From assembly GCA_009995545.1 (NCBI GenBank), contig JAACPI010000001.1:2475-66474 (forward strand): a stretch of DNA of 64,000 nt, written 5' to 3'. Under the pieces are notes generated by a model. The model was not told the origin of the DNA. It ran no database searches and saw nothing but the letters and a program-made list of their open reading frames with translations. How positions within the stretch are numbered: position 1 is the stretch's first letter; each line of letters starts with the position of its first letter. The translations under genes and the position numbers were made by a program. The stretch comes from a bacterium. GTDB lineage: Bacteria; Patescibacteriota; WWE3; 2-01-FULL-39-13; JAACPI01. Shown in pieces: positions 39,365-63,800 of the stretch.

Positions 39365-40489
39365 ATGGAACTAAATGACCGTTTTTATAAGTCAACTGAG
39401 GTCTCAGAGATTCTTGGAGTGTCTTTAAGAACACTCTATCGTTACATGGATTCGGGTAAAATCCAATCAGTACAGCTTCCAAGTGGAAGACATCGGTTTA
39501 CTAAACAGCAAGTGGAGTCTTTTTTGTACTCTAATGGCTCAGGTGGTTTAGGGCAAAATGTTCCTATTCAGTCTTATCAAAATAATGCTGACAGAGTTTA
39601 TGTAGATACTGGTTATTCACAAAACCAGAACCAGAACCAATACCAGAACCAGAATCAAAACTCAGGTCAGGGTCAAAACAATGCTTCTGGGATGCCAAAT
39701 AATCAATATAACGGACAGCAGACACCTTTTAACGAATCACAAGGACAACAGCCTGTAGCCCAGGTTAACCCTTATAGCGCACCGGTGCAAAACCAGAACG
39801 CTAGTCCCTTTGCATCTTCACCTTCTGTAAGCCCCCAAATGGATAACAATGTCGCTAATACTCCTGCAGCTCCTGTTGAGGAAGAAGCAGACGATTTAGA
39901 CGCTGAGTTAGAAGAGCTGTTGGCCTCTCTGGAGAGTGACTCCGAGGATGATACAGCTGTAGTAGAAAACTCATCACCTAATAGCGCCCCCCAAAATAAT
40001 GCAGACACTTCTAGTGCTGACCAAACCAAATCTTATACAGGTGGTTTAGGTGGTTTTGCGGATGAAGAAGAGGTTGAAGAAAAAATTACTATACCTAGCG
40101 TAGATGAGAATAATGTTGTTTATTTCTACTGTCCTTATAATCAGTTAAGGGCTATCGCTAGAATGGTAAAAACAACTTCTGAAGATAATGGCAAAAACTA
40201 TGCTTTTACAATGAACGCTGGTTTGTCGCTATACTTTCCTTTAGATCCTTTTTCTGTCATTCACTTCTATATAGAAGAATCTGATTTGGATTTTTGGAAA
40301 GATAACTTACAGCTTAAAGAAAGTAGTAAAAGTGACGCTAACATAGGTTTATTACTTACAAAAGGTGGGGCTTTAAACAATACTAAAGAAGTTAGTGGGT
40401 TAAAAGTTGTATCTAAAGAAGTAATGATAAACAACCTAAAAGCAAATGGCCTTGAAAATTTAATTTCTCAGGTCGAAAGTAAGCTTTAA
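39365..40489 (+). CDS. DNA-binding protein: N-terminal excisionase/MerR-type HTH, a Q/N-rich low-complexity region, an acidic tract and an uncharacterised C-terminal domain
   Basis: YKSTEVSEILGVSLRTLYRYMDSGKIQSVQLPSGRHRFTKQQVESFL (HTH_17-like), followed by NQNQNQYQNQNQN. Confidence 0.5.
   Translation: MELNDRFYKSTEVSEILGVSLRTLYRYMDSGKIQSVQLPSGRHRFTKQQVESFLYSNGSGGLGQNVPIQSYQNNADRVYVDTGYSQNQNQNQYQNQNQNSGQGQNNASGMPNNQYNGQQTPFNESQGQQPVAQVNPYSAPVQNQNASPFASSPSVSPQMDNNVANTPAAPVEEEADDLDAELEELLASLESDSEDDTAVVENSSPNSAPQNNADTSSADQTKSYTGGLGGFADEEEVEEKITIPSVDENNVVYFYCPYNQLRAIARMVKTTSEDNGKNYAFTMNAGLSLYFPLDPFSVIHFYIEESDLDFWKDNLQLKESSKSDANIGLLLTKGGALNNTKEVSGLKVVSKEVMINNLKANGLENLISQVESKL
39620..39662 (+). repeat. 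Simple CAGAAC-type microsatellite encoding the Q/N tract
   Basis: aaccagaaccagaaccaataccagaaccagaatcaaaa. Confidence 0.7.
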
Positions 40490-40611
40490 GTAGGTTACTT
40501 GAATGAATCAATCCTTAACCTGGTCAAATTCTTTGGCTAGGTTTAAGGGTTAGTTTTAAATAACTACTAGAGAATTCTAAAACTCCCTTTTAATTTCGTT
40601 CTGTTTATATT

Positions 40612-40718
40612 CTCCTTCATGCACCCAGTCGACTAAGCTTCGAATCTCAGCAACTCTATTGTGGATTTGCACCCAAGCAGCCTCAGTTCATAAAATCACT
40701 GTGTTTTATGTGCATACA
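40612..40718. repeat. Copy A of a roughly 100-bp intergenic element (modules Y then X) with reiterated (A/T)TGCACCC motifs
   Basis: catgcacccagtcgactaagcttcgaatctcagcaactctattgtg then tttgcacccaagcagcctcagttcataaaatcactgtgttttatgtg. About 80% identical to the modules at 55668-55779. Confidence 0.6.
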
Positions 40719-40956
40719 GTTCCGTACTTTATTTACTACCAATAATTATAACTTCAATAAATGAGTGTAAAAATTTAAGGGTAAGGTTGCGTCAATGATT
40801 AAATAAAAAATAATCGTGTGATCATTACGCTAGTGTTACCAGTAATTTAATACTTAAAATAACTTAGATTGGAGAATAAAGTAGGGGAGTGTTTGCACAA
40901 TATTAAGTGCTAATTAAAACCTAAAATCGATTCTTTCTTTTAACATTAAGAGCTTA

Positions 40957-41016
40957 AAACCCACCTCGGCAACAAGTGTCCTGCCCAACCACTCGTTACG
41001 GGGGTGAGGTGGGTTT
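40957..41016. other. Long GC-rich hairpin (11-bp stem, 38-nt loop) in a non-coding region
   Basis: aaaacccacctc...gaggtgggttt. The loop contains cctcggcaac, which is shared with the repeat element. Confidence 0.5.
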
Positions 41017-41306
41017 AAAACTCTTAACTTTTAATGTTCCAAAGCAATGCTGTTTAGCAATTCTTATGTAAATACTATAGCATAAGTCAGCGTACTTGTC
41101 AATACTATGGGGTCGATATAAAATGAAATCTTGTTATAAGCTTTTGTAACAGGATTTTGTCTTTATCTAATAAACATAGATTAACGAAAAACATAATAAC
41201 ACAGCAAAATAATTTAATCTATAGTCTAATTTAACTTTCGCTAGGGGATTGCTTAACTAATAGTAAAAGGGGGTTAAACCAAATGTGGGTATTTTATTAT
41301 GCAAAT

Positions 41307-41335
41307 TTTCCTCGGGGGATAGTCCCCCGAGGAAA
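41307..41335 (-). terminator. Probable intrinsic terminator of rplL
   Basis: tttcctcggggga-tag-tcccccgaggaaa forms a 10-13-bp GC stem 8 nt downstream of the rplL stop, followed by AAAATTT on the transcribed strand. The U-tract is imperfect. Confidence 0.4.
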
Positions 41336-41342
41336 GAGTAAA

Positions 41343-44512: not shown

Positions 44513-44713
44513 TTAGCTAGTAAATCCTAGCAGATATCTTAATCCTTCTGTTAAGCCGGTGTCTATTATAGCTAATATTCCCGCTAATACCAAGCTTATT
44601 ACTACAACTACCTTTGTACTGTTGTAAACGGCTTGTTTATTTGGCCAATCTACTCTTTTCATTTCGGCGTAAACCTCTCTTAAGTAGCTGACTGTTTTGT
44701 TAATTATTTTCAC
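44513..44713 (-). CDS. secE: Preprotein translocase SecE
   Basis: 66 aa with a single C-terminal TM helix, directly upstream of nusG. Confidence 0.7.
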   Translation of the reverse strand: MKIINKTVSYLREVYAEMKRVDWPNKQAVYNSTKVVVVISLVLAGILAIIDTGLTEGLRYLLGFTS

Positions 44714-44747
44714 AGTGTAGCTATTTTATACTGTATCTAGGTTTTTG

Positions 44748-47135
44748 TTAACGATCATTCTGAAAGTACCACAACATTCCGTCTACTAACTCTTCCATAT
44801 GTTTTGGTGTAAGGGCCAATTTGTTTTGTTGATTTAACCAACTTACATATTCCTTAAAAAAGTCCGGGCCCAGTACTATTAATTGGCTTCCAGTACTCCG
44901 AGTTATGTTTAATACGTGGTCGGTTAATTCTTTAACACGAAAAGCTCCAAATATTTTGCCGTAACTACTGTTATTAGCAATAACTCTATGACTGCCGTAT
45001 TTATCTTGGCTTATTACACCTGGGGTATTTTTTATACACACATCCAAAAGTTCTGCAAAAGCATAGCCCATAAGATCATTTGGTATGTATTTTATTAACC
45101 AATCTTGTGTAAGAGTATCCAGTGCTATCACTCTAGGGGTAACCTCCATACCTGCGGATAATGCTGCATTAAATTTATTTGCATAAGCCTCGTCGTAGTA
45201 AAAGACCTCTTTTTTAGTTTCTTGTTTTTTACTTGGCCCGCCAGTTTTAATCATTTTAGATCTTTTTATAGCAACTTCTACACCTTCTTGTGCCTGTATT
45301 TCTTCCAAAGCTTGTCTGTGGGCTGTACTACCGGGTTTGAAGGGCATTAGCATTTGTAAGTACTCAAAAATTTTATCGTAACTTATAAACTCTAAAAAGA
45401 CCTGTTTTAAGTCTAAAATGTCCTCGTTGCCCTCTAAATTAGCCGTATCTACTAAGTAGTATAAAAATTTTATTCTAGCATCAATGTCTGCCTTTAATGT
45501 TTCTACAGTCTGGATAATACTTGGCCTTAGTCTTACAAGATTTGTTCGTTGACCTCTACAGTACCTTTTTATGTTTTCTAGCCTGCCCGCCGTAAAATCA
45601 AAATCCCCTAAGTTATGGGGGTGAATAGCCTGTTGTATCAATATTATAAGATGTTCACCCATTAAAATTACATCTTCGTCTGTTATTGCAATTTCTGGTT
45701 TTTTATCTTCATTTTTCAATTTTAGCTTGTAGATAGATCCTTCCAACTTCCAACCGTTCTGCTGACCATTTAAGATTTTGGAATAAATCTCTTCTCTTTC
45801 ACTACCCTTTAACTGTAAAAGCAAACTTAAAGTTTGTGCCAGCAATTCCTGAGTTTCTATAGAAACGGTTGCTTTAGACCAGCTGTGTAGAGCGTTTTCT
45901 ACATCCTGTATAGAAAATTCTTCACCCACAAAATTTTGTAGTGCCAGTTCTACTGCTTCTATCCCACCTACTCTTTGGGCAGTAGCATGCTCTTTGTTGG
46001 ATCCATCAAACCCTTTTTTAGATAAGTATTGAAGTAATTGTCCTTGTGAGCAACATCTAAGTTCTTCTATTGCTTTTGCTAAAGATGGTCTATCTAACGA
46101 ACTTAAAAAAGTTCTTGTTGTTGTGCCCAAAAAATTCGCTTTGTCTAACTTATGTTCTAAAGTTTGCAATAAAATTAAAAAGGTTCTGTGGTTTAGTCCC
46201 GATGCTGTAATAATACCTTTTACAGCTTCTAGTGTGTCTTGTGAAGATTTCTCTACTAAAATAGGTTGTACTTCGGATCTTACTCTACCTGAAATACCTC
46301 TCACTTCTCTAATCATTTGGTATATTCTTGCCTGTTTAGTATTTTGGCACAAAGTTAAGTACAGGTCTTGCTGTCTGGTAGCCGCGATTTCTTTTCTACC
46401 CAGGTGTTTAAAACCCGCCCCCTCAGTAGTTTTAATTCCCGATAAATCCAGTAGTTCTTGTATTGGGTCCACCCCTTCCTCTTCGTCAAAATTTTTCAAA
46501 GTCTCGGGATCAACAATTAATTCTTGTCTTTGTTTTTTAAGTGTTGGATTGAATTTTAAAAAATCCCTGTATTTTGAAACTTGCTCCCAAATATTTACTA
46601 AGGGTAAGTTGGTCGTTTTCTCAACGTTAAATAAAACTTCTCTTCTGTAGGCTGCAATGGCGGGTAATACTGGGTAAATAACTGCTCTAAAGTCTTCTAT
46701 TTGTTTTTCTATTTCTGCTAACTGTTCTACTGCGTAATTTTGTTGGTACCTTAAGGCAGTTCTTGCCGTAGTTACAAGGCAAGGAAAGTCTTGTGCCCCA
46801 TCGTAAATATCCTGTAATAGGGGAGTAGTATAGTAGTCAACTTCAAATCCAAAGTTTGCGTGTATAAATTGCTTTTCTAAGTACTCATAGTAGTAAATAT
46901 TAGACGCTTCTTCAGGTTTTGCCTGTGGGGTAGAGTTTTGTGGTGTGAAGTAGTTTTCTCCAAACAGCTGTTTAATAAGTAATACCTCTTCTTGTTTGAT
47001 ATAGGGCTGTTCAAAAGGAATACTTGTTTCTTCCATCACTCTATTAGCGGCCTCTAGAAGACAGTCTCTCCACTCTTGTTGTGCTGGGTTTTCAAACTCT
47101 ATTTGATTTTCGTTTGTATCTTGTTTTAGTTTCAT
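44748..47135 (-). CDS. Large hypothetical protein (795 aa), 34 bp upstream of secE on the same strand
   Basis: Long ORF, predominantly helical by composition, with no recognisable catalytic motif. The C-terminal roughly 150 aa has faint macro-like spacing (VIANNSSYG…LIVLGPDF). Confidence 0.5.
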   Translation of the reverse strand: MKLKQDTNENQIEFENPAQQEWRDCLLEAANRVMEETSIPFEQPYIKQEEVLLIKQLFGENYFTPQNSTPQAKPEEASNIYYYEYLEKQFIHANFGFEVDYYTTPLLQDIYDGAQDFPCLVTTARTALRYQQNYAVEQLAEIEKQIEDFRAVIYPVLPAIAAYRREVLFNVEKTTNLPLVNIWEQVSKYRDFLKFNPTLKKQRQELIVDPETLKNFDEEEGVDPIQELLDLSGIKTTEGAGFKHLGRKEIAATRQQDLYLTLCQNTKQARIYQMIREVRGISGRVRSEVQPILVEKSSQDTLEAVKGIITASGLNHRTFLILLQTLEHKLDKANFLGTTTRTFLSSLDRPSLAKAIEELRCCSQGQLLQYLSKKGFDGSNKEHATAQRVGGIEAVELALQNFVGEEFSIQDVENALHSWSKATVSIETQELLAQTLSLLLQLKGSEREEIYSKILNGQQNGWKLEGSIYKLKLKNEDKKPEIAITDEDVILMGEHLIILIQQAIHPHNLGDFDFTAGRLENIKRYCRGQRTNLVRLRPSIIQTVETLKADIDARIKFLYYLVDTANLEGNEDILDLKQVFLEFISYDKIFEYLQMLMPFKPGSTAHRQALEEIQAQEGVEVAIKRSKMIKTGGPSKKQETKKEVFYYDEAYANKFNAALSAGMEVTPRVIALDTLTQDWLIKYIPNDLMGYAFAELLDVCIKNTPGVISQDKYGSHRVIANNSSYGKIFGAFRVKELTDHVLNITRSTGSQLIVLGPDFFKEYVSWLNQQNKLALTPKHMEELVDGMLWYFQNDR

Positions 47136-47140
47136 TTATA

Positions 47141-47170
47141 AACAAAAAAGGCGCCCTTAAGACGCCTTTT
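47141..47170 (-). terminator. Intrinsic terminator between the 447-aa and 795-aa genes (bidirectional hairpin)
   Basis: aaggcgcccttaagacgcctt hairpin followed by TTTTTTGTTT on the minus strand. Confidence 0.55.
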
Positions 47171-47196
47171 AATATCAGTATAGGTTCGGTTAATTA

Positions 47197-48540
47197 TTAA
47201 TTTCCTCCGTTCAAAAAGTCGATTCGTTCCGCCTCTGACCAGTCAGTAGGGTCTACACCAAAATGATTCGCATTTGGGTTTGTCCAGTGGCTTTGCATAA
47301 AAGCAGTTTGGTCTCTTTCTCCCAATTTAACTAGAAGTGCCGTGTACGACGAATCTGAACCACTAAGATCTGTGTTACGGACCAGCTGCTTAGCTGTATT
47401 TCGGACTCTCTTTGTTCTACCTGCCACGCTAACTACACCAGCCTTGCTCTCTGTAGTCTCAGGTTCGAAGTAAAGTTGCAGAGATAAAACGCTCCTAGCG
47501 GCCTTAACCGGATCAAAGTGTCTATTTGAAAAATTTGGGTCCTGTAAGGCTTGTAGATTATTTTTATTACGTAATAGTTGCTCCACAATACCTATCCTAA
47601 ATAATTCATACTCGCTCCCCATGTTTTCTAAACTATAGCTGTAAACATCGTCTGAAATATCCGTTTGGAGTATTCCTGACTTTCCTTCATCTTCCAAATC
47701 ACAATGAATTCCCAAAATTCTGCAGGCTATCTCGTGTGCCTCTGTAATTATCTCCAGATTTGTCAGGTCAATATTTACCCCAAATAGTTGTTTTAGCTGA
47801 TTAAATAAGGCTGATTCAAAGTACTCCTGGTTTCCTGATGCTATATTACTTAACACTATTAATAGTGTTTCCGCTAGTGCCACTTCCTTATTTTTCCTGT
47901 CCCTCATCAGTTGTTCTCGATCTTGCTCCCTTCCTTTTTGTTTTGATTGGTGTGCAATCTGTACTATTCTAATAATTTTAGAAACTGGCCCGGTACGGGA
48001 TTCCATTATCTGCCTAGGTGTTTCCTCAAAGTCAGTAGGGGCTCCAAGTATTTGCATAATAGTTTCATTAGATAAAGCACTTGCCCCAGGGAAATATTTT
48101 TCCATTCTACGTGTAGAAATTGGGTGACCAAAAAGTGAACTTATTTCATCTAGTGCCCTGGGGTCTACTGTTTCTCTTTTAATTCCACTGGAAGTTCGTC
48201 TCCAAAACTCTTCCATGTGAGCCTGTCCAGTTGTATCCGCTATCCGACCTATCCGACCTATCATTATTAGGTCCTTGTCCCTGGTTACATAGGGAAGTCT
48301 CCCTGCAATTAAAGCAAACTCTCCGATTCCACTCCCGCTGTTTGCAATTTCTGAGGCTGTAACTCTTGCTAGCACGCCGTGGGTATTTAATACTGTGGCC
48401 ACATCTGTAGCTGTAGGTATAAATTCTTGGATTTCCTTATTTTCCTTTACAGGCACAATTTCTGTGCCCATTTGTACAGATTCTCTAGATATGGGTTCGT
48501 TTGGTTTGTTTGACATATTTAATGTATAAAAATCTTGCAT
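47197..48540 (-). CDS. Hypothetical protein (447 aa), GC-elevated
   Basis: ORF with no recognised motif. GC is about 40-45%. Confidence 0.5.
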   Translation of the reverse strand: MQDFYTLNMSNKPNEPISRESVQMGTEIVPVKENKEIQEFIPTATDVATVLNTHGVLARVTASEIANSGSGIGEFALIAGRLPYVTRDKDLIMIGRIGRIADTTGQAHMEEFWRRTSSGIKRETVDPRALDEISSLFGHPISTRRMEKYFPGASALSNETIMQILGAPTDFEETPRQIMESRTGPVSKIIRIVQIAHQSKQKGREQDREQLMRDRKNKEVALAETLLIVLSNIASGNQEYFESALFNQLKQLFGVNIDLTNLEIITEAHEIACRILGIHCDLEDEGKSGILQTDISDDVYSYSLENMGSEYELFRIGIVEQLLRNKNNLQALQDPNFSNRHFDPVKAARSVLSLQLYFEPETTESKAGVVSVAGRTKRVRNTAKQLVRNTDLSGSDSSYTALLVKLGERDQTAFMQSHWTNPNANHFGVDPTDWSEAERIDFLNGGN

Positions 48541-48679
48541 TATATTAACCTATAGGTTTTTTTATGTCAAGACATTTTATGCTCTATTAACAAGATATGG
48601 AACTTCTAAAATACAGTAATACCTCGTGGGACTGTAAGTTTTTGTTTTTTTTACTTAACTCTATTTTAAATGTATATAA

Positions 48680-48708
48680 TTGACTTTTCTAAGTACCTAT
48701 AGTATAAA
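48680..48708 (+). promoter_or_regulatory. Sigma70-like promoter (TTGACT-17-TATAAA) for the 218-aa gene
   Basis: Near-consensus spacing. A GAGAGGG SD-like sequence lies 8 nt before the ATG at 48764. Confidence 0.35.
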
Positions 48709-48763
48709 ATAGGTGCTGTTAATCGACGTTGTTAATTGAAGTACTAGTGAGAGGGCATTAAAA

Positions 48764-49420
48764 ATGCAGACAACACAGGCAGTTGTAAGTGGGGATCAGT
48801 TCCTCGGTGAATTGGAGTTTGGTATAACGTGGGATCCGTCTCGTATGGAGGAGTCCAAGACATACTTTGGTCTTCTCATCGAAGGGGCCGGCGACCAGGG
48901 AATACTAGCTTCAGAAGCCCAGGAGTTGATGAAGAAGGAGGGGCTTTGGCCTGACGTAGGGCCCAAGGCCGGGGCGGTCGTGAGATCGTACGCAGTGAAG
49001 GATGTCCGGGACGAGGGGGTCTTTTATATTCCCAAAGCCTCCAAATCCACACAAGTTGTTGAGTCAGTTGGGGAAGCCGCCGTCTCTACAGGTGACCCTG
49101 CCTCTACGGTTGAAGCCGCCGCAAAAGTTGCTGCTGAATCCGTAGAAGAGAAGTCGGCCGCTGAGTCTGTGAAAGAAGAGATTGGGTCCAAAACCCCAAC
49201 CCCTGAATTGGATTACATGCTCGCCTTGGTCGAAGGTCTTGAGTCTAGGGTTCACGAGTTGGAGCAGGTAAACAATGCTCTCACTGAGATGTTTGAACTG
49301 CTAGAGGCAAAGGTTATTTCCGGGCTCTCCAGACTTGAGGTTGAATTGGATCTCAGTATGGTGAAGGGAGATCCTCAGCCGAAGAAGCATGTTGTGCATC
49401 TGCACTTCCACGACGAGTAG
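48764..49420 (+). CDS. Hypothetical protein (218 aa) with strongly elevated GC, an Ala/Glu-rich linker, a coiled coil and a His-rich C-terminus
   Basis: Local GC is about 47-60%, the highest in the window. Ends …HVVHLHFHDE. Confidence 0.5.
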   Translation: MQTTQAVVSGDQFLGELEFGITWDPSRMEESKTYFGLLIEGAGDQGILASEAQELMKKEGLWPDVGPKAGAVVRSYAVKDVRDEGVFYIPKASKSTQVVESVGEAAVSTGDPASTVEAAAKVAAESVEEKSAAESVKEEIGSKTPTPELDYMLALVEGLESRVHELEQVNNALTEMFELLEAKVISGLSRLEVELDLSMVKGDPQPKKHVVHLHFHDE

Positions 49421-49433
49421 GGTTAACAGCAAC

Positions 49434-49493
49434 CGACTGGGGGTCGAGAATAAACGCAATGAATTATTGCAACTATATCTCGACCCCCAGTTG
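49434..49493. other. 15-bp-stem inverted repeat with a 30-nt loop (the loop itself is a small hairpin), immediately 3' of the GC-rich gene
   Basis: cgactgggggtcgag … ctcgacccccagttg. No U-tract follows on either strand. Confidence 0.5.
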
Positions 49494-49519
49494 GAAACCC
49501 AAAAATATAAATAATATAA

Positions 49520-52273
49520 ATGTCAAAAGCACTAGCAGAATCTCAATTTAAGGGTGATCAAGAAAAGGTTTTTATAGACTTGTTTGGTAATGCTTGCGTA
49601 GAGATAGCTAACGAGGAATACTTTGATGCTTACAATAAATATCCAAAACCTACTGGTGAGGAAGACCCTCATTTTAATACTTTTTTACAATCTAGAATTT
49701 CTGTTTACCAACGAGCTTTGGAAATAGGAAAATCCTGCTTAGATAATAGATTTACAAACGACCCAGAGGTTACTTTGCAAGATCCCAAAGACGGTGTATT
49801 TAAAACCTATAAATATGACCCTGTTAGTAGGGGGGTAGTTCTCGTTAATGAAGCAGTCTCCAAACAGGGTAATAGTTTTATAGATTTTACGCTAAATTTT
49901 GGAGAAGAATCTGCCTCGGACAATTCAGATAACGGAGACTTCCGCCGATCGGAAAATGACGAGATTAACTTTTACTCTGATTATACCTTGATGCACCAAA
50001 TGCTTTCAAAGGGCATGGAAGAGTTAGGTGCTCAATATACTTTTTTTGAGGCAGCCTTAAATAAATTTAAAAGATTTGACTCCACTGGTTGGGCTACATT
50101 AAAAAACACACCCCCCATTGATATAAACTTAAAAAGGGCTAAAAACTATCTTGCGATTCTAGATAAAATGCCCTCAAATGTAGAAAAAAGCTCTTGGTTT
50201 GTAAACCAAAGGGTCTTAGATCCTTCTTTAGAGAACTGGTCAGATAGAAGTAATCAGTTGCTAGAAGAGGCTGAAATTTTGGAAGGATTTTTTAATTCTG
50301 GCCCGGAGTATAAAACTGTACGAACTTTAAACTCTGAGAATTCTTTTGCTGTAGCATTGATTGGGGAAAGATATACCCCTTCTTCATTTCCTCAAATATA
50401 TATTGACGATGTTATTGCGATTAGTAGGATAATTTATGATCTAGCTATTTCTATACCCGATCCAATTGACAGAGAAAGTGCCTTAACAAATGTTGCTAGC
50501 GAGATTTTTATTAAAAGGTCTTCTCAGTTAGTCTCTTTATTGGAATCAAGAGGCATGCCTGTTGAATTGGGGTTAAATTACTTTAGGCAGATATTACAAA
50601 AGTACATTATGCGTCTCCCGGAACAATACTGCGTAGACTTTTTTGAGGGTAGAGAAGTTGAATTTACAATGAGAAACTTACTTTATGGTAGATATAACAC
50701 TGTTCACGATGAAAGAGAAAACTCCGAACGACATTTAGCCTCTTTTTTACAGCAGTATAAACAGGGGAAGTACAAGTCAGACTCGTTGGAGTCTTTAGAA
50801 CCCGGTACCGTTAAAGAAGTTTACGCCAAACTGGTAACAGGAAAACTAGAGGGTTTTGACTCAGAAAGCACTAGAAATGCCCTTATAGCCACTTTGAGAT
50901 ATTTTCAAATCGACTACGAGGATTCTTTGCAGGTTTTTGTTCCCACCGAAGGGTCGGTTACGTGCAGAACTTTTTTTGGGTCGATTAAAGATAACTTAAA
51001 ACAGCTTTCCCCTGTGGTTATCGAAGTGTTTTCTGAAATTTACGCTTATAAAAGTCTAGTTAACGAACTTAATGAGCTTGGAAAAGCAGGTCAAATAAAA
51101 GCTGACGCCCTTTTGGTTGGAAGAATTAAAAACAAGTATTCTGGCGAGAACGTCTCTGATTTCAGATCTGGTGATAAATTATATTTAGATTTGGATGTTT
51201 TTGTTGAATGCCACTTGCCCCAGATTGCAAGAAACATTAAATCTGTAATTGAGCAAGTTTCTTACTATAGTCAGCCTTTAAGTTCCGAAAATATTATATT
51301 ATCTGTAAAAAAATGGGTTAAAGAAAGACCAGAACTGGTAAGCCCCGCGTGTGCGGCTTTTGGTTTAAGCCCTCTCCAATTAGAGCAATATATAGCTGCT
51401 AAAGTAACCTTTATAACTGTAAAATCTAAGCGCTATTTTGCAAGTAACCCTAATTTTATGTTAGTTACCCTAGAAAACTCTTGGGCAGAAAACTTAGCAG
51501 AGCAAGAAAGTAAAAAAAAAGTTGAAAAACTTGTAAATAAAGGATTCACCTGGCAGGAATTCTCTGCTTTACCCGTTATAGTGCAAAATAGGCTGGTAGA
51601 TGCTGTTTTCGAAATGCCCGATACCAAGGAAAAACAGGAATTGCTTTTAGATATCTTTTACTATCTAAGGCTTAAATATTCTATGAGAGGGCCACTAAAG
51701 TTGTTTGATGTTACAAAACAGAAATCAGAAGAGCCCTTAGTAAAAATTAAACGCATTCAGGCTGTGTCTCATTTTTCTGTTAGAGCCATTCAAGGTTTAT
51801 CTAGTGAGTCTGTACTTGCAGATTATCTTGATACCGTTTTACTAAGGGATAGACTCTTTTCTACTATAGACAGCGGCATACCCAAACCTTTTACGGGTCA
51901 GTTGGGTAAAGAACTTAGACAAGAATTTTTTACATATTATTTTGCTAAACATGGCACTAGAAAGGGAAGTGTTATACCAAAAACCCTATACAGTAAAGAC
52001 ACTATATCTTTGATGGCAAGGGATTTTGTACAAGAAAACTTAAGTATAGTCGAGGAAAAAATGGAACGGAGAAACGTAAAAATTAGAAGAGCGGAAAACC
52101 ATTATGATTTAGACCGATTTACTAATGAACTTGTAGAATATGCTGAGGATGCCTTTGAAAGAACCCGAAGGTTACTTTACGGTAATGGATACGTGGTTGA
52201 GAGAGGTTTAACAAGTAAGGTTGTTATACAAACATTAACATCTCTACTTGAGGCTTCCTTAGAAAGAATATAA
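49520..52273 (+). CDS. Large hypothetical protein (917 aa)
   Basis: Long ORF with no TM segment, no signal peptide and no nucleotide-binding or metal-binding motif visible. Confidence 0.5.
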   Translation: MSKALAESQFKGDQEKVFIDLFGNACVEIANEEYFDAYNKYPKPTGEEDPHFNTFLQSRISVYQRALEIGKSCLDNRFTNDPEVTLQDPKDGVFKTYKYDPVSRGVVLVNEAVSKQGNSFIDFTLNFGEESASDNSDNGDFRRSENDEINFYSDYTLMHQMLSKGMEELGAQYTFFEAALNKFKRFDSTGWATLKNTPPIDINLKRAKNYLAILDKMPSNVEKSSWFVNQRVLDPSLENWSDRSNQLLEEAEILEGFFNSGPEYKTVRTLNSENSFAVALIGERYTPSSFPQIYIDDVIAISRIIYDLAISIPDPIDRESALTNVASEIFIKRSSQLVSLLESRGMPVELGLNYFRQILQKYIMRLPEQYCVDFFEGREVEFTMRNLLYGRYNTVHDERENSERHLASFLQQYKQGKYKSDSLESLEPGTVKEVYAKLVTGKLEGFDSESTRNALIATLRYFQIDYEDSLQVFVPTEGSVTCRTFFGSIKDNLKQLSPVVIEVFSEIYAYKSLVNELNELGKAGQIKADALLVGRIKNKYSGENVSDFRSGDKLYLDLDVFVECHLPQIARNIKSVIEQVSYYSQPLSSENIILSVKKWVKERPELVSPACAAFGLSPLQLEQYIAAKVTFITVKSKRYFASNPNFMLVTLENSWAENLAEQESKKKVEKLVNKGFTWQEFSALPVIVQNRLVDAVFEMPDTKEKQELLLDIFYYLRLKYSMRGPLKLFDVTKQKSEEPLVKIKRIQAVSHFSVRAIQGLSSESVLADYLDTVLLRDRLFSTIDSGIPKPFTGQLGKELRQEFFTYYFAKHGTRKGSVIPKTLYSKDTISLMARDFVQENLSIVEEKMERRNVKIRRAENHYDLDRFTNELVEYAEDAFERTRRLLYGNGYVVERGLTSKVVIQTLTSLLEASLERI

Positions 52274-52277
52274 GAAA

Positions 52278-52892
52278 TTAAATAAACCTACTCAACAAGT
52301 TGTAAGTAAAGTTAATTACCGGGCCTAGTATTTTACCTGTAGTGCCTGTAAATATAAGCAAGAGTAAAATTATTGTTCCGTATCTGTAGGTCTCTTTAAA
52401 TTGCTCGCTTAATTCGTTTGGCAAAATGCTGGATATCACATTAAAACCGTCCAAAGGGTAAATAGGTATTAAATTAAAGGTAGCTAATACTACGTTTATA
52501 ATTATAAATTGTAAAATTATGGCTATTAGTACCTCGGGTATTGTCCCAAATCCAATATACAGTGTCCCAAATCCCAATAATGCCATAGCAATATTGCTTA
52601 AAGGTCCTGCGAAGGCAATTATTCCTGTATCTCTCTTGGGGTTTTTTAGGTTGTAAGGGTTAAATATAACAGGCTTTCCCCAGCCGAAAGTTGGTCCTGG
52701 TATAAGGGCTGTGATTACTAAAAGAGCCGTTCCTACAGGGTCTAAATGCTTTAAAGGGTTTAAGGTCACCCTACCCATCATTCTTGGTGTGGCATCGCCT
52801 AATTTATCCGCGGCATAAGCATGCGCAAACTCGTGAATAGATAAAGCTAAAAGCAGTACTGGTAATAAAAATAATAGTGTAAAAATAGACAT
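52278..52892 (-). CDS. Site-2-protease-family (peptidase M50) zinc metalloprotease
   Basis: HEFAHA zinc motif and NLIPIYPLDGFN second motif. Polytopic membrane protein. Confidence 0.65.
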   Translation of the reverse strand: MSIFTLLFLLPVLLLALSIHEFAHAYAADKLGDATPRMMGRVTLNPLKHLDPVGTALLVITALIPGPTFGWGKPVIFNPYNLKNPKRDTGIIAFAGPLSNIAMALLGFGTLYIGFGTIPEVLIAIILQFIIINVVLATFNLIPIYPLDGFNVISSILPNELSEQFKETYRYGTIILLLLIFTGTTGKILGPVINFTYNLLSRFI

Positions 52893-60259: not shown

Positions 60260-60865
60260 GTGAGAACTGCCAAATTAAAACTAATAATACTTTCATTTTT
60301 TGTTTTGCTTGTTTTGGTTTTAGTAACTTACTTACTATCTAGATCAAAAAAAAGTGATTCTCCCATTTCGGATATCAACACTACTCCTGTTTCCAGTGAA
60401 CTTGAGTCTGATAAAAGTTGGTATTCTCGACAGGAAGGCTTATGGATTATTGGCACTTTAATTGAATCTAAGGAAGAAGGTGATGATTTTTATCTCAAAA
60501 TAGGGGTAGATAATTTTGAAATTAAAGTTTTATTAGGGTCTAAAGAGCTTAGTAAGTTCGGTGTTTCCTATCCCGAAAACAACCAGGTCGTGCCCTTTCA
60601 TTCCAAAAAATGGGAAACTCTTGGTTTTACAGAAATATCCTCAGATTTAATTTCCGGTCACAAAATAGCGGTTCTGATAAAAACTAGCTTTCCTGAATCA
60701 GCCTCTTTGTGCAGTAACAAGGTTTGTTCTTACTCTTTAGCTAATTTAGAAAAATATCTCCCTAATAACAAATCCCTGCAGGATAAGTTAGGTTCTGAGA
60801 ATACGGGACATTTAGAATCGGGTTTAATATATGGTCCTGTATCTCAAATTTCGCTCTACAAATGA
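60260..60865 (+). CDS. Small N-terminally anchored extracellular protein (201 aa)
   Basis: Signal or anchor segment LKLIILSFFVLLVLVLVTYLL. Its stop overlaps the next start (ATGA). Confidence 0.4.
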   Translation: MRTAKLKLIILSFFVLLVLVLVTYLLSRSKKSDSPISDINTTPVSSELESDKSWYSRQEGLWIIGTLIESKEEGDDFYLKIGVDNFEIKVLLGSKELSKFGVSYPENNQVVPFHSKKWETLGFTEISSDLISGHKIAVLIKTSFPESASLCSNKVCSYSLANLEKYLPNNKSLQDKLGSENTGHLESGLIYGPVSQISLYK

Positions 60866-63800
60866 ATACGAAGATCTTTAAGGTATTAGTGCTTTTTTTC
60901 CTACTCTTAACCTTAGTACTGCTTATTTTCCCATCTAAAAAACATGTTTCAGCTCAGACCTGTACAGGTTCTGCTCAATATGTCGACTACAGCTGTGTTT
61001 TTGATGACATAACTTTACTTTATAGCTGTATTGCTAATGGCGGTATGACCGTAGCCTGTGCAGGAGTTCCGTGCCAGACTTTCGGCCCAGTCTTTTGTTG
61101 GGGGGGTCTTAGTTGCGGCCTGTCTGCCTATGGTTCTACAGCAGGTTGCAGCACAACCCCCGTACCCCCTGCTGTTTGCGGTAACGGTACTAGAGAAACA
61201 GGAGAAGGTTGTGATGACGGCAATAAAACGAATGGTGATGGCTGTAGTTCTTCTTGTCAGATAGAAACTTCTAAACCCGTCTGCGGAAATGGTAAAAAGG
61301 AAACAGGAGAAGGTTGTGATGACGGCAATAAAACGAATGGTGATGGCTGTAGTTCTTCTTGTCAGCTAGAACCTTCCTTGCCCGTGTGTCCAAACGGTAT
61401 TGTGGAAGCTGGGGAGGCTTGTGATGACGGTAATAGTAACAATTTGGATGGTTGCAGAAATAACTGCACCACTCCTTATTGTGGCGATGGTATTATAGAC
61501 TCTCCAGGGGAGACCTGTGATGGGGGAGTGGGGTGTACTTCTAACTGTACCGGTATTACAGGAGGGGGATACGCTTGTAATGGGTCCTCCTGTGAAGCCT
61601 CTGTTGGTGGTCCATACACTGCCTCAGATTGCGGAGGAGCTTGTAATACTCCGACAGGACAATTTTTTTGTGGAAATGACCTGGCTTGCCACCCTTGTGG
61701 TGCGGGCGACTCAAATTGTAAATCCTTGGGAGATTGTCAAAGTGAGTGTGTATGTACTTCTCCAGGTGGGTGCTTTGTTTCTGGGTGTAACCCCTTAGCC
61801 ACTTCGGGAATTTGCGATGGTGCACTTATCCCTGGCGCCAACACTACTGGCTGTATGGGGAACGGTTGGATGGATCTTTTAGATTTAGCTTCAAAAAGGG
61901 TTAGGTATAATTTAGATTGTGGTAATGCAAACTGGGGCCAAACCAACATTGGTGGTGGAGGGACAAACTACGAGGGGTTGGGTGTTTTACGTAAATTACC
62001 AAATCCCCCCGATCCAAACTACCCTTGGGTTGAGGTGGCACTAGTACCTAATGGCCAGGGGGGTTCTATTGATTTTACCGACCCTTATCTTACCACGGGT
62101 GTTAATCAATATAAGGTTATAGCCAGATGTGCTTATCGTGAAAACACAGGTACTGCCGATAGGATAAAATGGGTAAAGATTGGTGGTACTACATATCACA
62201 ACAATGACGATTTCTACGATGTGAGTATGTACTCTGCATGTAGCCAGGATAAGATACTGCAGCTGGTTCTAACTCCCCCCGTCTGCAATAACTGGTTTGT
62301 TAGTCCGAACATAGACAGCATCCCAAAAACTGTAAGCATAGAATCCAATGCTTACGACGGCGAGGGTCTATCAGGGGGAGGTATGTATTACAGCACTACC
62401 CAAAATGGGGCTTACGGCAGCATAGATAGTAATGGAAACTTTGTAGCTGGGACGGCTGGAGAAATTATTGCTAACAGGGCAGATTATTTTTCTTCGGGTA
62501 CTTTAGCAGGTAAAATAACTTCTACCTTTAACATACAAAACTTACCATCGGGTAATTATCAGTTTCAGGGTAATTATTGGAATAAATATGCAAGTTTTCC
62601 CAGTACCGACCCTTTGCACTTCAAGCAATGTCTCTCCCCTCAAGTATATATAGATAATACTCCGCCTACCTGCGGAAATTGGAATTTTAACCCCGCTTCC
62701 CCTTTGGATTCGACCCAAAACTCCTTTAGCGTTTCCACTTCTGCTACGGACAACTCTGCAATTAGAGATTTCGGTTTTTACTACCAGAACTACGACGAAT
62801 CTACAAGTACCTGGGGATACTACGATGCCGGAGGTGTTTTTGTTCCAAATTCTTACGTACCTCTCGTAAAAAACAAATCAGATTATTTTACTCCCCCTGT
62901 TCCGAGCCCTACAACTACTAATTTTATTAATAGGTCCAATATACCCTCAAATAAATTTAGGTTTTTTGCAAACTACTGGGATTCCTCAGCACCTCATAAC
63001 TTGTCGGCAGGGAGTAATAATTTTTCTCAGTGTGTTTCGCCCGTTTATGAAATAAAATCCTCGGCTCCTGTAATTTCTTTAACAATTCCTGCCGCAACTA
63101 CTTACAAGGGATATAATAATTATTATTCTGATGGTAAATATTCTGTTCAGGTAAAAATTACCGATACCCCAGGAGACGTTAATACTTACAATTGGGGAGT
63201 ACTAGGCGGGTTATTAACTGGATCTCTAACCAGTGGCTTAAAGAATGGTACAGTTGTAAATTATCCTTTCAGTTTAAGTTTAGACTGGGCTCCCGGATCA
63301 GCATTTAACCAAGTTGGCACATCTCAGGTGTCTTTTAATAGTATAGACTCACAGGGTAACGATATTACTGTTTCTGACCAGATAAGTACCGTATCCCCAA
63401 CTTTTACAGCAAACACTAGCCTTCGTTATAGAAACAAGGTTGTTAGCGGTTCTCAGGACTTAAAAGCCTTTTGTGAAGATGCCGAGTTTAACAACAATGC
63501 GAATACCAAGAATTTCAATTCAGGAAATAATGGAATCTCCGCGATAGTCAATTTTACCTCTGCAGGTCCTCTTGCGAGTTCTTCCTACAACAAAAGCTTT
63601 AATACTAAAATCCAGGGCACCGACGTTTATACTAATTTAGTTGAGATGGTGGGAACTAGCTACTATACTGCCAGTTTTCTTCCCCAGTTTACTGTCCCTG
63701 GTTACGAGGTACTATGCATCAAAGACATGACGAACAACAAAACATACTCTGGGCAATCCGACTTGCTTGTTAACGTAGCTCGAGAGTCGACTCTGAATTT

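What the first reader, a model, noticed from the sequence alone, without database searches (positions are those of the whole stretch)
48560..49500. GC-shifted 218-aa gene (about 50% GC versus about 33%) with its own consensus promoter and a 15-bp-stem inverted repeat at its 3' end
The local GC of 48764-49420 is the highest in the window. The encoded protein has an N-terminal domain, an Ala/Glu-rich linker, a coiled coil and a His-rich end (HVVHLHFHDE) that could bind metal.

Immediately downstream is a long, near-perfect inverted repeat (cgactgggggtcgag / ctcgacccccagttg) with a structured 30-nt loop and no U-tract. This looks more like a recombination or regulatory RNA structure than a terminator.

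Together these suggest a recently acquired cassette.
Basis: seen in the sequence. Interest (0 to 1): 0.55.

Follow-up and report, generated by a model that had tools for sequence, protein, structure and literature searches.

The report
Persistently GC-rich orphan gene with conserved hairpin
A small gene in an AT-rich candidate-phyla-radiation bacterium is much more GC-rich than its genome, and this is an old, maintained trait rather than a sign of recent import, because its only two known relatives show the same GC shift, the same promoter and the same large RNA hairpin after the stop codon.

Summary
ORF 48764-49420 has 52.5% GC against 36.5% for the window. GC3 is 0.56, against 0.16-0.37 in 46 other ORFs, and its codon adaptation is the lowest in the window. 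An 81-nt three-tier hairpin at 49420-49500 (-42.5 kcal/mol; -44 for a 91-nt stretch) is the strongest fold in the window and has no U-tract.

The "recently acquired cassette" reading is not supported. An exhaustive search found only two homologues. Both lie in AT-rich DNA with the large downstream gene following them; the one long contig shows the full four-gene arrangement. Both are equally GC-shifted (GC3 0.50 and 0.58, flanks 0.22-0.28), although synonymous sites between the three are saturated. Both keep the hairpin (72-91% identity), and the one with upstream sequence keeps the promoter. Stem changes are G:U-compatible only on the + strand, so the hairpin acts as RNA in the mRNA.

Best reading: a strongly promoted unit encoding an acidic winged-helix/coiled-coil protein. 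The GC-enriched coding sequence and the 3' hairpin probably stabilise or process the transcript ahead of the co-transcribed 917-aa gene. That mechanism is inferred.

The 7.5-kb four-gene block is lineage-specific: it is absent between secE and the M50 peptidase gene in six of seven relatives. No mobility signature was found.

The parts
48542..48570 (-). Promoter-like site for the divergent 447-aa gene: TTGACA, 17 nt, TAATAT, with the palindrome CCTATAGG (48549-48556) just upstream of the -10.
   Evidence: 10 of 12 match. Conserved blocks TAACCTATAG and TGTCAAGA in L012. It is an inverted copy of the other promoter's -10 region (pair I7).
48680..48708 (+). Near-consensus sigma-70-type promoter of the 218-aa gene: TTGACT, 17 nt, TATAAA. 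CCTATAG (48696-48702) abuts the -10.
   Evidence: Read. Both hexamers, the 17-nt spacing, the CCTATAG motif and the following 17 nt are identical in L012. The 19-mer occurs once in the window, with 0.04 expected.
48709..48763 (+). Predicted 5' leader. It has a conserved start ATAGGTGCTGTTAATCG (48709-48725) and a Shine-Dalgarno GAGAGGG (48749-48755) 8 nt before the ATG.
   Evidence: Alignment with L012 and L013. No significant conserved fold.
48764..49420 (+). GC-shifted coding sequence, 218 aa, acidic (pI 4.6). Winged-helix-like domain at residues 22-92 (48827-49039), Ala/Glu linker at residues 93-145, long helix or coiled coil at residues 147-186 (49202-49321), C-terminal beta hairpin with HVVHLHFH.
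   Evidence: composition and codon usage. (codon positions 1 and 2 are 49-74% identical and position 3 is 26-39% identical among the three homologues, so it is a real coding gene). (fold). (charge).
49420..49500 (+). Conserved 81-nt RNA hairpin. Outer stem 49420-49424 / 49496-49500 overlaps the stop codon. Main stem 49433-49449 / 49478-49494. Apical stem 49456-49461 / 49465-49470. No U-tract.
   Evidence: stability. (conserved in L012 and L013; stem changes only to G:U). (+ strand folds 7-8 kcal/mol better than the - strand in both homologues). (one copy per locus). (no Rfam family).
49501..49519 (+). A/U-rich, unstructured spacer between the hairpin and the start of the 917-aa gene. It holds no promoter and no Shine-Dalgarno.
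   Evidence: the spacer and start codon are unpaired in all three loci.
49520..52273 (+). 917-aa orphan gene, probably co-transcribed with the 218-aa gene.
   Evidence: The homologue in L012 is 30% identical over 939 aa, E 6e-127. The start of the same gene follows the hairpin in L013.
47197..48540 (-). 447-aa orphan gene, divergent partner in the module. The true start is probably the ATG at 48516.
   Evidence: The homologue in L012 is 26% identical, E 5e-34.
44748..47135 (-). 795-aa orphan gene, the fourth member of the lineage-specific block.
   Evidence: The partial homologue at the end of L012 has E 1e-8. The block is absent between secE and the M50 peptidase gene in six of seven relatives.

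Best explanation
**What it is**
- The region is a conserved expression unit inside a rare four-gene module (795, 447, 218 and 917 aa) of a few AT-rich Patescibacteria.
- A near-consensus promoter and a good ribosome-binding site drive a small gene for an acidic protein. That protein has an N-terminal winged-helix-like domain, a flexible Ala/Glu linker, a coiled coil and a C-terminal beta hairpin.
- The promoter shares an operator-like CCTATAG motif with the divergent promoter of the 447-aa gene.

**The GC shift**
- The coding sequence is kept GC-rich at synonymous sites by gene-specific selection, not by recent import.

**The hairpin**
- The transcript runs into an 81-nt, roughly 28-bp three-tier RNA hairpin that overlaps the stop codon.
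- I propose that the hairpin acts in the mRNA as a barrier to 3' exonucleases, as a processing site of the RNase III type, or as a leaky attenuator.
- The GC-rich, highly paired body of the message would remove the unpaired A/U-rich sites that endonucleases prefer.
- Together these would make the 218 message long-lived and abundant, while letting a fraction of transcripts continue into the large 917-aa gene 26 nt downstream.

**Shown**
- The composition anomaly and its conservation.
- That the ORF is a real coding gene.
- Promoter and hairpin conservation.
- Strand-specific RNA signatures in the hairpin.
- Single-copy status of the hairpin.
- Synteny of the module.

**Inferred**
- Co-transcription of 218 and 917.
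- The stabilising or processing role of the hairpin.
- The reason for the GC enrichment.
- The role of the protein.
For: **Composition**
- GC3 is 0.562, against 0.308 expected and 0.155-0.366 in all other ORFs. CAI is the lowest of 47 ORFs.
- Ribosomal-protein genes here have the lowest GC3 (0.155-0.243), so the bias is not ordinary translational optimisation.

**Persistence**
- The homologues P0004 (L012) and P0005 (L013) have GC 52.6% and 55.6%, and GC3 0.50 and 0.58. Their flanking genes have GC3 0.22-0.28.
- Third codon positions among the three are 26-39% identical, while positions 1 and 2 are 49-74% identical.

**Synteny**
- L012 has the order g181(-), g554(-), g317(+), g947(+). These match the 795-, 447-, 218- and 917-aa proteins with E values of 1e-8, 5e-34, 1e-19 and 6e-127.

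**Promoter**
- TTGACT, 17 nt, TATAAAATAGGnGCTGTTAATCG is conserved in L012.

**Hairpin**
- Folding energy is -44 kcal/mol, z -9, the strongest fold in the window.
- It is 72-91% identical across the three loci.
- Of 28 predicted pairs, the variable main-stem positions change only between A-U or G-C and G-U.
- The + strand folds at -42.5, -38.9 and -38.9 kcal/mol. The - strand folds at -41.8, -31.0 and -31.6.
- There is one copy per locus and none elsewhere.
- The internal-loop sequence and apical-loop length vary while the stems are kept.

**Read-through**
- Only 19-40 nt of unstructured A/U-rich RNA separates the hairpin from the next start codon (19 nt after the full 81-nt element in the window, 26 nt after its main stem). 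No conserved promoter lies in that space, and the downstream start region is unpaired in all three loci.

**Structure of the message**
- The native sequence folds better than synonymous-codon shuffles in all three genes, z -1.5, -3.7 and -3.0. Twelve control genes range from -2.4 to +1.9.

**Background from papers**
- In E. coli, abundant mRNAs have more structured coding sequences, and RNase E cuts unpaired A/U-rich sites (PMC4619774).
- GC-rich, highly structured RNA fragments decay slowly in M. tuberculosis lacking RNase J (PMC9312406).
Against: - Only three sequences exist, two of them from one sequencing project and one only 966 nt long.
- No stem pair shows a compensatory change on both sides, so structural support rests on G:U-compatible single changes and on strand asymmetry.
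- The shuffle test for the window's own gene (z -1.5) lies inside the control range.
- No expression data exist. Promoter strength, co-transcription and transcript ends are all predictions.
- GC-ending codons are rare codons here. This could lower protein yield, which sits uneasily with a high-abundance design.
- Several other 3' hairpins in this genome also lack a clear U-tract, for example after rplL. The missing U-tract alone therefore does not exclude termination.
- The perfect sequence conservation of the lower stem could mean sequence-specific protein binding rather than a generic barrier.
Confidence: 0.45

Rival explanations
1. The 218-aa gene, with its promoter and inverted repeat, is a recently acquired foreign cassette that has not yet drifted toward the host's base composition. 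The repeat would be a recombination site.
For: - Composition and codon usage are strongly atypical.
- The protein has almost no relatives.
- The surrounding 7.5-kb block is missing at this site in six of seven relatives.
- GTTGGAA at the 3' end of the repeat matches 6 of 7 positions of the attC core GTTRRRY (read; the consensus is from memory).
Against: - The orthologues in L012 and L013 show the same shift in the same gene order, despite saturated synonymous divergence.
- No homologue exists in any GC-rich context among 1.84 billion representatives.
- No integrase, transposase, tRNA junction or flanking direct repeats were found.
- There are no phage, plasmid or viral relatives.
- The repeat is single-copy and is more stable as + strand RNA than as its complement.
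- All 23 contigs read for this species carry the gene in the same context; the five compared by sequence (the window and L001-L004) are at least 99.97% identical.
Confidence: 0.06
2. The hairpin is simply the intrinsic terminator of a monocistronic 218 transcript, in a lineage whose terminators often lack U-tracts. The 917-aa gene would have its own promoter.
For: - The hairpin sits directly after the stop codon.
- Other gene-end hairpins in this genome have weak or absent U-tracts, for example the rplL hairpin CCUCGGGGGA...UCCCCCGAGG followed by AAUUUG.
- A weak promoter-like match, TTAACA, 17 nt, GAGAAT, lies at 49423-49451.
Against: - No U-tract is present in any of the three loci.
- At -40 to -44 kcal/mol, the hairpin is about twice as stable as any other gene-end hairpin in the window, which range from -10 to -24 kcal/mol.
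- Only 19-40 nt separate it from the next start codon, with no conserved promoter. The weak internal match is lost in L012, where the hexamers read TTAGCA and GACGTA.
- Ordinary terminators are not conserved at 72-91% identity while flanking proteins are about 30% identical.
Confidence: 0.15
3. The hairpin is a sequence-specific protein-binding site on the mRNA. One candidate ligand is the winged-helix/coiled-coil protein itself, giving autogenous control or control of 917 translation. The CCTATAG motifs would be its DNA operators.
For: - The lower stem is invariant in sequence, not just in pairing.
- The fold hits include RNA-binding winged helices: LOTUS domains and SelB bound to SECIS RNA.
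- A shared CCTATAG motif sits at both divergent promoters and is conserved in L012. Three of its nine occurrences in the window lie in this 223-nt spacer.
Against: - The protein and its winged-helix domain are acidic in two of the three homologues, pI 4.6-4.8. This is atypical for nucleic-acid binders.
- The hairpin does not occlude the start region of the 917 gene.
- With three sequences, invariance may only reflect limited sampling.
Confidence: 0.14
4. The GC enrichment is a translational throttle. Rare GC-ending codons slow elongation of this gene, for example to aid folding or assembly, or to cap protein output from a strong promoter. mRNA stability would not be the selected trait.
For: - CAI is the lowest in the window, and the bias is opposite to that of the ribosomal-protein genes.
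- TTA is used 0 times for 20 Leu, against 43% genome-wide. AAG, GAG, GCC, GGG and CTC are over-used.
Against: - A throttle does not explain why the unit also carries a conserved giant 3' hairpin, a strong promoter and a strong Shine-Dalgarno.
- The enrichment is spread over the whole gene rather than at domain boundaries.
- In E. coli, structure in the coding sequence has little effect on elongation (PMC4619774).
Confidence: 0.15

Closest known systems
Intercistronic and 3' mRNA-stabilising or processing hairpins. Examples, recalled from memory and not tested here: REP stem-loops between malE and malF in E. coli, the puf operon hairpins of Rhodobacter, the 3' 'positive retroregulator' of Bacillus thuringiensis cry genes, and the RNase III sites between phage T7 early genes.
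   Same: - A very stable stem-loop lies between a small, presumably abundant upstream cistron and a downstream cistron.
- It has no U-tract.
- It carries about 28 bp of helix interrupted by internal loops.
- It acts on the sense RNA.
   Different: - It is single-copy and deeply conserved in sequence, whereas REP elements are dispersed repeats.
- It overlaps the stop codon.
- It is paired with GC enrichment across the whole coding sequence.
- No experimental evidence of processing or stabilisation exists.
Canonical intrinsic (Rho-independent) terminators
   Same: A GC-rich stem-loop immediately after a stop codon.
   Different: - No U-tract in any of the three loci.
- The stem is two to three times longer than in this genome's other gene-end hairpins.
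- The next gene starts 19-40 nt downstream without a promoter.
Compositionally atypical genes called as horizontal transfers (genomic islands, integron cassettes with attC)
   Same: - Atypical GC and codon usage.
- An orphan protein.
- An imperfect inverted repeat at the 3' end.
- The block is absent from relatives at this site.
   Different: - The anomaly is shared by diverged syntenic orthologues.
- There are no mobility genes and no array of cassettes.
- The gene has its own promoter.
- The repeat is conserved in sequence rather than only in structure, and it shows RNA-type asymmetry.
Winged-helix domain proteins (LOTUS/OST-HTH, ScpB, PadR/ArsR regulators, Rpc34)
   Same: The predicted helix-helix-helix-strand-strand topology of residues 22-92, pLDDT 69-89, superposes on these domains at about 3 A over 60-75 residues.
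   Different: - No sequence similarity to any Pfam, NCBIfam, PHROG or PADLOC family.
- The fold scores are weak.
- The domain is acidic in two of the three homologues.
- It is joined to an acidic linker, a coiled coil and a beta tail.

Membership tests
Intrinsic (Rho-independent) terminator | GC-rich stem-loop at the end of a gene | tested here: met
Intrinsic (Rho-independent) terminator | Run of U directly after the stem | tested here: not met
   The tail after the main stem is AAACCCAAAAAU, with 0 U in the first 8 nt. The U-tract is also absent in L012 and L013.
Intrinsic (Rho-independent) terminator | Marks the end of a transcription unit | tested here: inconclusive
   The next gene starts 19-40 nt downstream with no conserved promoter. 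No transcript data exist.
Integron gene cassette / attC site | Integron integrase and attI nearby, cassettes in an array | tested here: not met
   No integrase family appears among the genes within 10 kb. The element is single-copy.
Integron gene cassette / attC site | Promoterless ORF followed by attC whose structure, not sequence, is conserved, with R'' RYYYAAC and R' GTTRRRY cores | tested here: not met
   The gene has its own conserved promoter. The repeat is 72-91% identical in sequence. The 3' core GTTGGAA matches 6 of 7 positions, but the 5' partner does not match RYYYAAC (read; consensus from memory).
Recently transferred genomic island | Atypical base composition and codon usage | tested here: met
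Recently transferred genomic island | Mobility genes, tRNA junction or flanking direct repeats | tested here: not met
Recently transferred genomic island | Anomaly specific to the recipient: orthologues elsewhere match their own genomes, or donor-like relatives exist | tested here: not met
   Both known orthologues are equally shifted in AT-rich flanks. No other relatives were found among 1.84 billion representatives.
Dispersed palindromic repeats (REP/BIME, MITE) | Many copies per genome | tested here: not met
   One copy in the 64-kb window and none in seven related loci. The whole genome was not available.
Intercistronic mRNA stabiliser / RNase III-type processing hairpin | Long (about 20 bp or more), interrupted double-stranded RNA stem between cistrons, acting on the sense transcript | tested here: met
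   5 + 17 + 6 bp with internal loops. G:U-only variation and a + strand stability advantage of 7-8 kcal/mol. It lies between the 218 and 917 genes.
Intercistronic mRNA stabiliser / RNase III-type processing hairpin | Transcript 3' ends or cleavage at the hairpin, and higher level or longer half-life of the upstream segment | not testable with these tools
   This needs RNA-seq or Term-seq, or nuclease assays.
Winged-helix (wHTH) domain | H1-(b1)-H2-H3-b2-b3 topology | tested here: met
   AlphaFold2 with a 3-sequence alignment gives H25-45, H49-58, H68-76, E77-82 and E85-90, with pLDDT 69-89.
Winged-helix (wHTH) domain | Significant structural or sequence match to known members | tested here: inconclusive
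Rfam RNA families | Match at gathering score | tested here: not met
   There are no hits in the region at gathering score. With the E-value threshold there are only chance hairpin hits, the best being mir-335 at 22.5 bits against a gathering score of 64.

The most novel reading that the evidence does not exclude
The GC-enriched message and its conserved hairpin are not just a stable mRNA. They form the specific RNA partner of the protein they encode. The winged-helix/coiled-coil protein would bind the invariant lower stem of its own transcript, building an autoregulatory or assembly-type ribonucleoprotein within a four-gene module of unknown function that is confined to a few Patescibacteria. 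The long-term, gene-specific maintenance of GC at synonymous sites would then be selection on the RNA as a structural molecule. More modestly, this is a clean natural case of selection on synonymous sites for nuclease resistance in an AT-rich symbiont.
Probability: 0.12. Interest if true: 0.75.

Novelty: new variant of a known kind. Interest (0 to 1): 0.5.

Why it matters
Atypical GC content and codon usage are routinely read as recent horizontal transfer. Here the same anomaly is carried by diverged, syntenic orthologues whose synonymous sites are saturated. The anomaly is therefore maintained by something acting on the nucleotide sequence of one gene.

That makes this a compact, testable case of gene-specific selection on synonymous sites. 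It is coupled to a deeply conserved, undescribed RNA hairpin, in a group of organisms (candidate phyla radiation) where post-transcriptional control is almost unexplored.

It also defines a small orphan four-gene module and a new winged-helix/coiled-coil protein family. These would be candidates for study if transcriptomes or cultures become available.

Tried and rejected
**Family searches, all empty or insignificant**
- Pfam, PHROGs, NCBIfam and PADLOC for the 218-, 447-, 917- and 795-aa proteins and their L012 homologues gave nothing significant. The best hits were JetD at E 0.017 for the 795-aa protein and DUF7518 at E 0.009 for the 218-aa protein, both far below their cut-offs.
- The word-indexed search of 5.8 billion proteins found only the query itself for the 218- and 917-aa proteins. 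A profile of the three family members found no more.
- PDB sequence profiles gave only coiled-coil noise.

**Collection scans**
- Phage and plasmid collections by tblastn gave no match.
- Viral contigs gave nothing with protein profiles, the hairpin pattern or the promoter pattern.
- The JGI metagenome scan with the protein profile gave nothing.
- The hairpin DNA pattern gave 70 loci, all in contigs of roughly 50-80% GC and without the inner GCAAT stem. These are chance palindromes.

**Ideas tested and dropped**
- An ncRNA instead of an ORF: rejected. Codon-position conservation is clear and the ORF is open in three diverged copies. The similarity seen in the antisense frame mirrors the sense conservation.
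- A conserved 5' UTR structure: not supported, z -0.3, +0.2 and -2.3.
- A metal-binding His tail: not conserved in P0005.
- A tandem winged-helix duplication in P0004: no internal similarity.
- The second GC-rich stretch of the window as a similar case: rejected. It is a Cys/Gly-rich secreted protein with native GC3.
- Population variation: L001-L004 are at least 99.97% identical to the window, with no differences in the unit, so they are uninformative.

**Limits of the tools**
- The single-sequence AlphaFold model was useless, pLDDT 42.
- The afdb50 fold library was unavailable.
- Literature searches found no description of this gene or hairpin.
Full report
**1. What is in the sequence**

The window is a 36.5% GC stretch of a Patescibacteria (candidate phyla radiation) genome. 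Its NusG is 48-66% identical to MAGs labelled Saccharibacteria, WWE3 and Patescibacteria. The 218-aa protein is NCBI NCT55252.1, "hypothetical protein GW755_00225 [bacterium]".

ORF 48764-49420(+) exists as described. Its GC is 52.5%, and the stretch 48791-49447 is the GC maximum of the window at 53.1%, about 4.3 sd above the mean.

About half of the excess comes from the Ala/Glu/Gly/Val-rich protein. With the window's own codon usage the gene would be 43.3% GC. The other half comes from codon choice. GC3 is 0.562 against 0.308 expected and 0.155-0.366 in the 46 other ORFs of at least 100 aa. CAI is the lowest of all 47 ORFs, z -3.8 with ribosomal-protein genes as reference and -4.2 with all genes as reference.

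Ribosomal-protein genes have the lowest GC3 here (0.155-0.243), so the bias runs opposite to that of highly expressed genes. The GC rise begins at the start codon and stops at the 3' arm of the hairpin.

The other GC-rich stretch of the window (61051-62400) lies inside a Cys/Gly-rich secreted protein and has native GC3. The 218-aa gene is therefore the only codon-level outlier.

**2. Flanking signals**

Upstream lie TTGACT (48680-48685), a 17-nt spacer, TATAAA (48703-48708) and a GAGAGGG Shine-Dalgarno 8 nt before the ATG.

The divergent 447-aa gene has TTGACA, 17 nt, TAATAT at 48570-48542. Both -10 regions are preceded by CCTATAG and are inverted copies of one another (pair I7). The motif is not enriched in the window overall, but three of its nine occurrences fall in this 223-nt spacer.

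Downstream, the arms 49433-49449 and 49478-49494 pair. With an outer 5-bp stem (49420-49424 / 49496-49500, overlapping the stop codon) and an apical 6-bp stem, a 91-nt stretch folds at -44 kcal/mol, z -9.0. It is the most stable 90-nt fold in the window on either strand.

It is about twice as stable as any other gene-end hairpin here; those range from -10 to -24 kcal/mol. No U-tract follows. Some other gene-end hairpins of this genome also lack one, for example after rplL.

No Rfam family matches.

**3. Relatives**

The word-indexed search found only the protein itself. The exhaustive HMMER scan of 1.84 billion representatives found two distant homologues. P0004 is 317 aa, E 4e-12. P0005 is 238 aa, E 3.5e-6.

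P0004 lies on a 6.4-kb contig (L012) with the same gene order as the window. A partial homologue of the 795-aa protein (E 1e-8) and a 554-aa homologue of the 447-aa protein (E 5e-34) lie on one strand. The 317-aa gene and a 947-aa homologue of the 917-aa protein (30% identity, E 6e-127) lie on the other.

P0005 lies on a 966-nt contig (L013). It is followed by the start of a 917-like gene.

In both homologues:

- **The GC shift is shared.** GC is 52.6% and 55.6% and GC3 is 0.50 and 0.58. The flanks are 31-38% GC with GC3 0.22-0.28.
- **The hairpin is present.** It sits at the same place and is 72-91% identical, including the outer stem around the stop codon and the apical GCAAU/AUUGC stem.
- **The promoter is retained where it can be seen.** In L012 the promoter, the CCTATAG motifs and the first 17 nt of the leader are conserved.

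Among the three genes, codon positions 1 and 2 are 49-74% identical but position 3 only 26-39%. This shows that the ORF is a real, purified coding gene. It also shows that synonymous sites are saturated. The elevated GC3 is therefore an equilibrium that has been maintained, not a leftover from a recent import.

**4. The hairpin works as RNA on the + strand**

In the main stem the only differences among the three loci are A-U to G-U (two positions) and G-C to G-U (one position). A further G-U pair is invariant. On the complementary strand these would be C-A mismatches.

Accordingly the + strand folds at -42.5, -38.9 and -38.9 kcal/mol. The - strand folds at -41.8, -31.0 and -31.6 kcal/mol.

Internal-loop sequences and the apical loop length (3, 3 and 4 nt) vary while the stems persist. 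There are no double compensatory changes, and with three sequences none could be expected.

A covariance model finds one copy per locus. It finds none elsewhere in the window or in seven related loci.

The downstream start codon lies 19-40 nt beyond the element, 26 nt after the main stem in the window, in unpaired A/U-rich RNA in all three loci. No conserved promoter lies between. The 917-aa gene is therefore most simply expressed by read-through.

**5. The protein**

AlphaFold2 with the three-sequence alignment gives a confident N-terminal domain (residues 22-92, pLDDT 69-89) with helix-helix-helix-strand-strand topology. It also gives a disordered acidic linker, a 40-residue helix (147-186) and a low-confidence C-terminal beta hairpin.

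The protein is acidic (pI 4.6), and the winged-helix domain is acidic in two of the three homologues. A classical DNA-binding repressor role is therefore not obvious.

The His-rich tail is shared with P0004 but replaced by Thr/Met in P0005.

**6. Context**

In six of seven related genomes the M50 peptidase gene lies within about 120-330 nt of secE-nusG. In the window, 7.5 kb holding the four orphan genes (44748-52273) separates them, and M50 is in the opposite orientation.

The other three genes have native GC3 (0.29-0.33). No integrase, tRNA junction or flanking repeat is present. No phage, plasmid, viral or defence-system relative was found.

The block is thus lineage-specific and of unknown origin, but nothing marks it as mobile. 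All 23 contigs read for this species carry the gene in the same context; the five compared by sequence (the window and L001-L004) are at least 99.97% identical.

**7. Interpretation**

The facts fit a conserved expression unit rather than a foreign cassette. The unit has a strong promoter, a good ribosome-binding site and a GC-enriched coding sequence. It ends in a very stable, conserved RNA hairpin that is not followed by a U-tract and sits just ahead of a co-directional large gene.

The most economical mechanism is control at the mRNA level. The hairpin would block 3' exonucleases, serve as an RNase III-type processing site, or act as a leaky attenuator. The paired, GC-rich body of the message would offer few unpaired A/U-rich endonuclease sites.

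The native genes fold better than synonymous-codon shuffles in all three loci, z -1.5, -3.7 and -3.0. Controls range from -2.4 to +1.9. This is suggestive but not decisive.

Published work shows that abundant E. coli mRNAs have more structured coding regions, and that RNase E prefers unpaired A/U-rich sites (PMC4619774). It also shows that GC-rich structured fragments decay slowly in mycobacteria lacking RNase J (PMC9312406).

The rivals are a plain terminator, a specific protein-binding site (possibly for the encoded protein) and a rare-codon translational throttle. None is excluded, and all are listed with tests.

**8. Verdict**

"Recombination site" and "recently acquired cassette" are not.

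The finding is a new, very rare protein family and an undescribed conserved RNA hairpin, together with an unusual, persistent gene-specific GC shift. The mechanism remains inferred, and the evidence base is three sequences.

Noticed in passing
window 40941-41030 (within 40490-41342): The second most stable fold of the window, -42.6 kcal/mol. It is a long inverted repeat, TTAAGAGCTTAAAACCCACCTC...GAGGTGGGTTTAAAACTCTTAA. It lies inside an 850-nt stretch with no ORF of at least 100 aa, between the HTH_17 gene and the end of rplL. There is no Rfam match.
   Followed up: partly
window 60862-64000: A large ORF running off the end of the window. It has a signal peptide and repeated Cys/Gly-rich units (CGNG..ETGEGCDDGNKTNGDGCSSSCQ). 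It accounts for the second GC peak through GC1 and GC2, while its GC3 is native at 0.27-0.42.
   Followed up: partly
window 44513-52892 compared with L005-L011: In six of seven related genomes the M50 peptidase gene is divergent from and adjacent to secE-nusG. In the window it is 7.5 kb away, on the same strand as secE, with four orphan genes in between. This points to an insertion plus a local inversion with no visible mobility marks.
   Followed up: partly
window 48541-48711: The two divergent promoters are inverted copies of each other around a CCTATAG motif next to the -10. The motif and its positions are conserved in L012. This may be a shared operator.
   Followed up: partly
window 48516-48540: The -10 of the 447-aa gene's promoter abuts the annotated ATG at 48540. 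The true start is therefore more likely the ATG at 48516, which gives 439 aa, as one public gene call has it.
   Followed up: no
window 49415-49426: The window copy ends ...GAG TAG GGT TAA. Both homologues read through the equivalent GGT and stop at the TAA/TAG inside the conserved GGGTTAA, ending in ...KG. The window lineage gained an earlier stop one codon upstream, and the hairpin's outer stem overlaps the ancestral stop.
   Followed up: yes
window 41310-41336 (- strand): The hairpin after rplL, UUCCUCGGGGGACUAUCCCCCGAGGAA, is followed by AAUUUG rather than a U-tract. The hairpin after the 447-aa gene (47146-47170) is a canonical A-tract/U-tract bidirectional terminator. Terminator style is mixed in this genome.
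   Followed up: no
window 39365-40489: A 374-aa protein with an N-terminal HTH_17 domain and a long Gln/Asn-rich low-complexity region (NQNQNQYQNQNQ). This is unusual for a small-genome bacterium.
   Followed up: no
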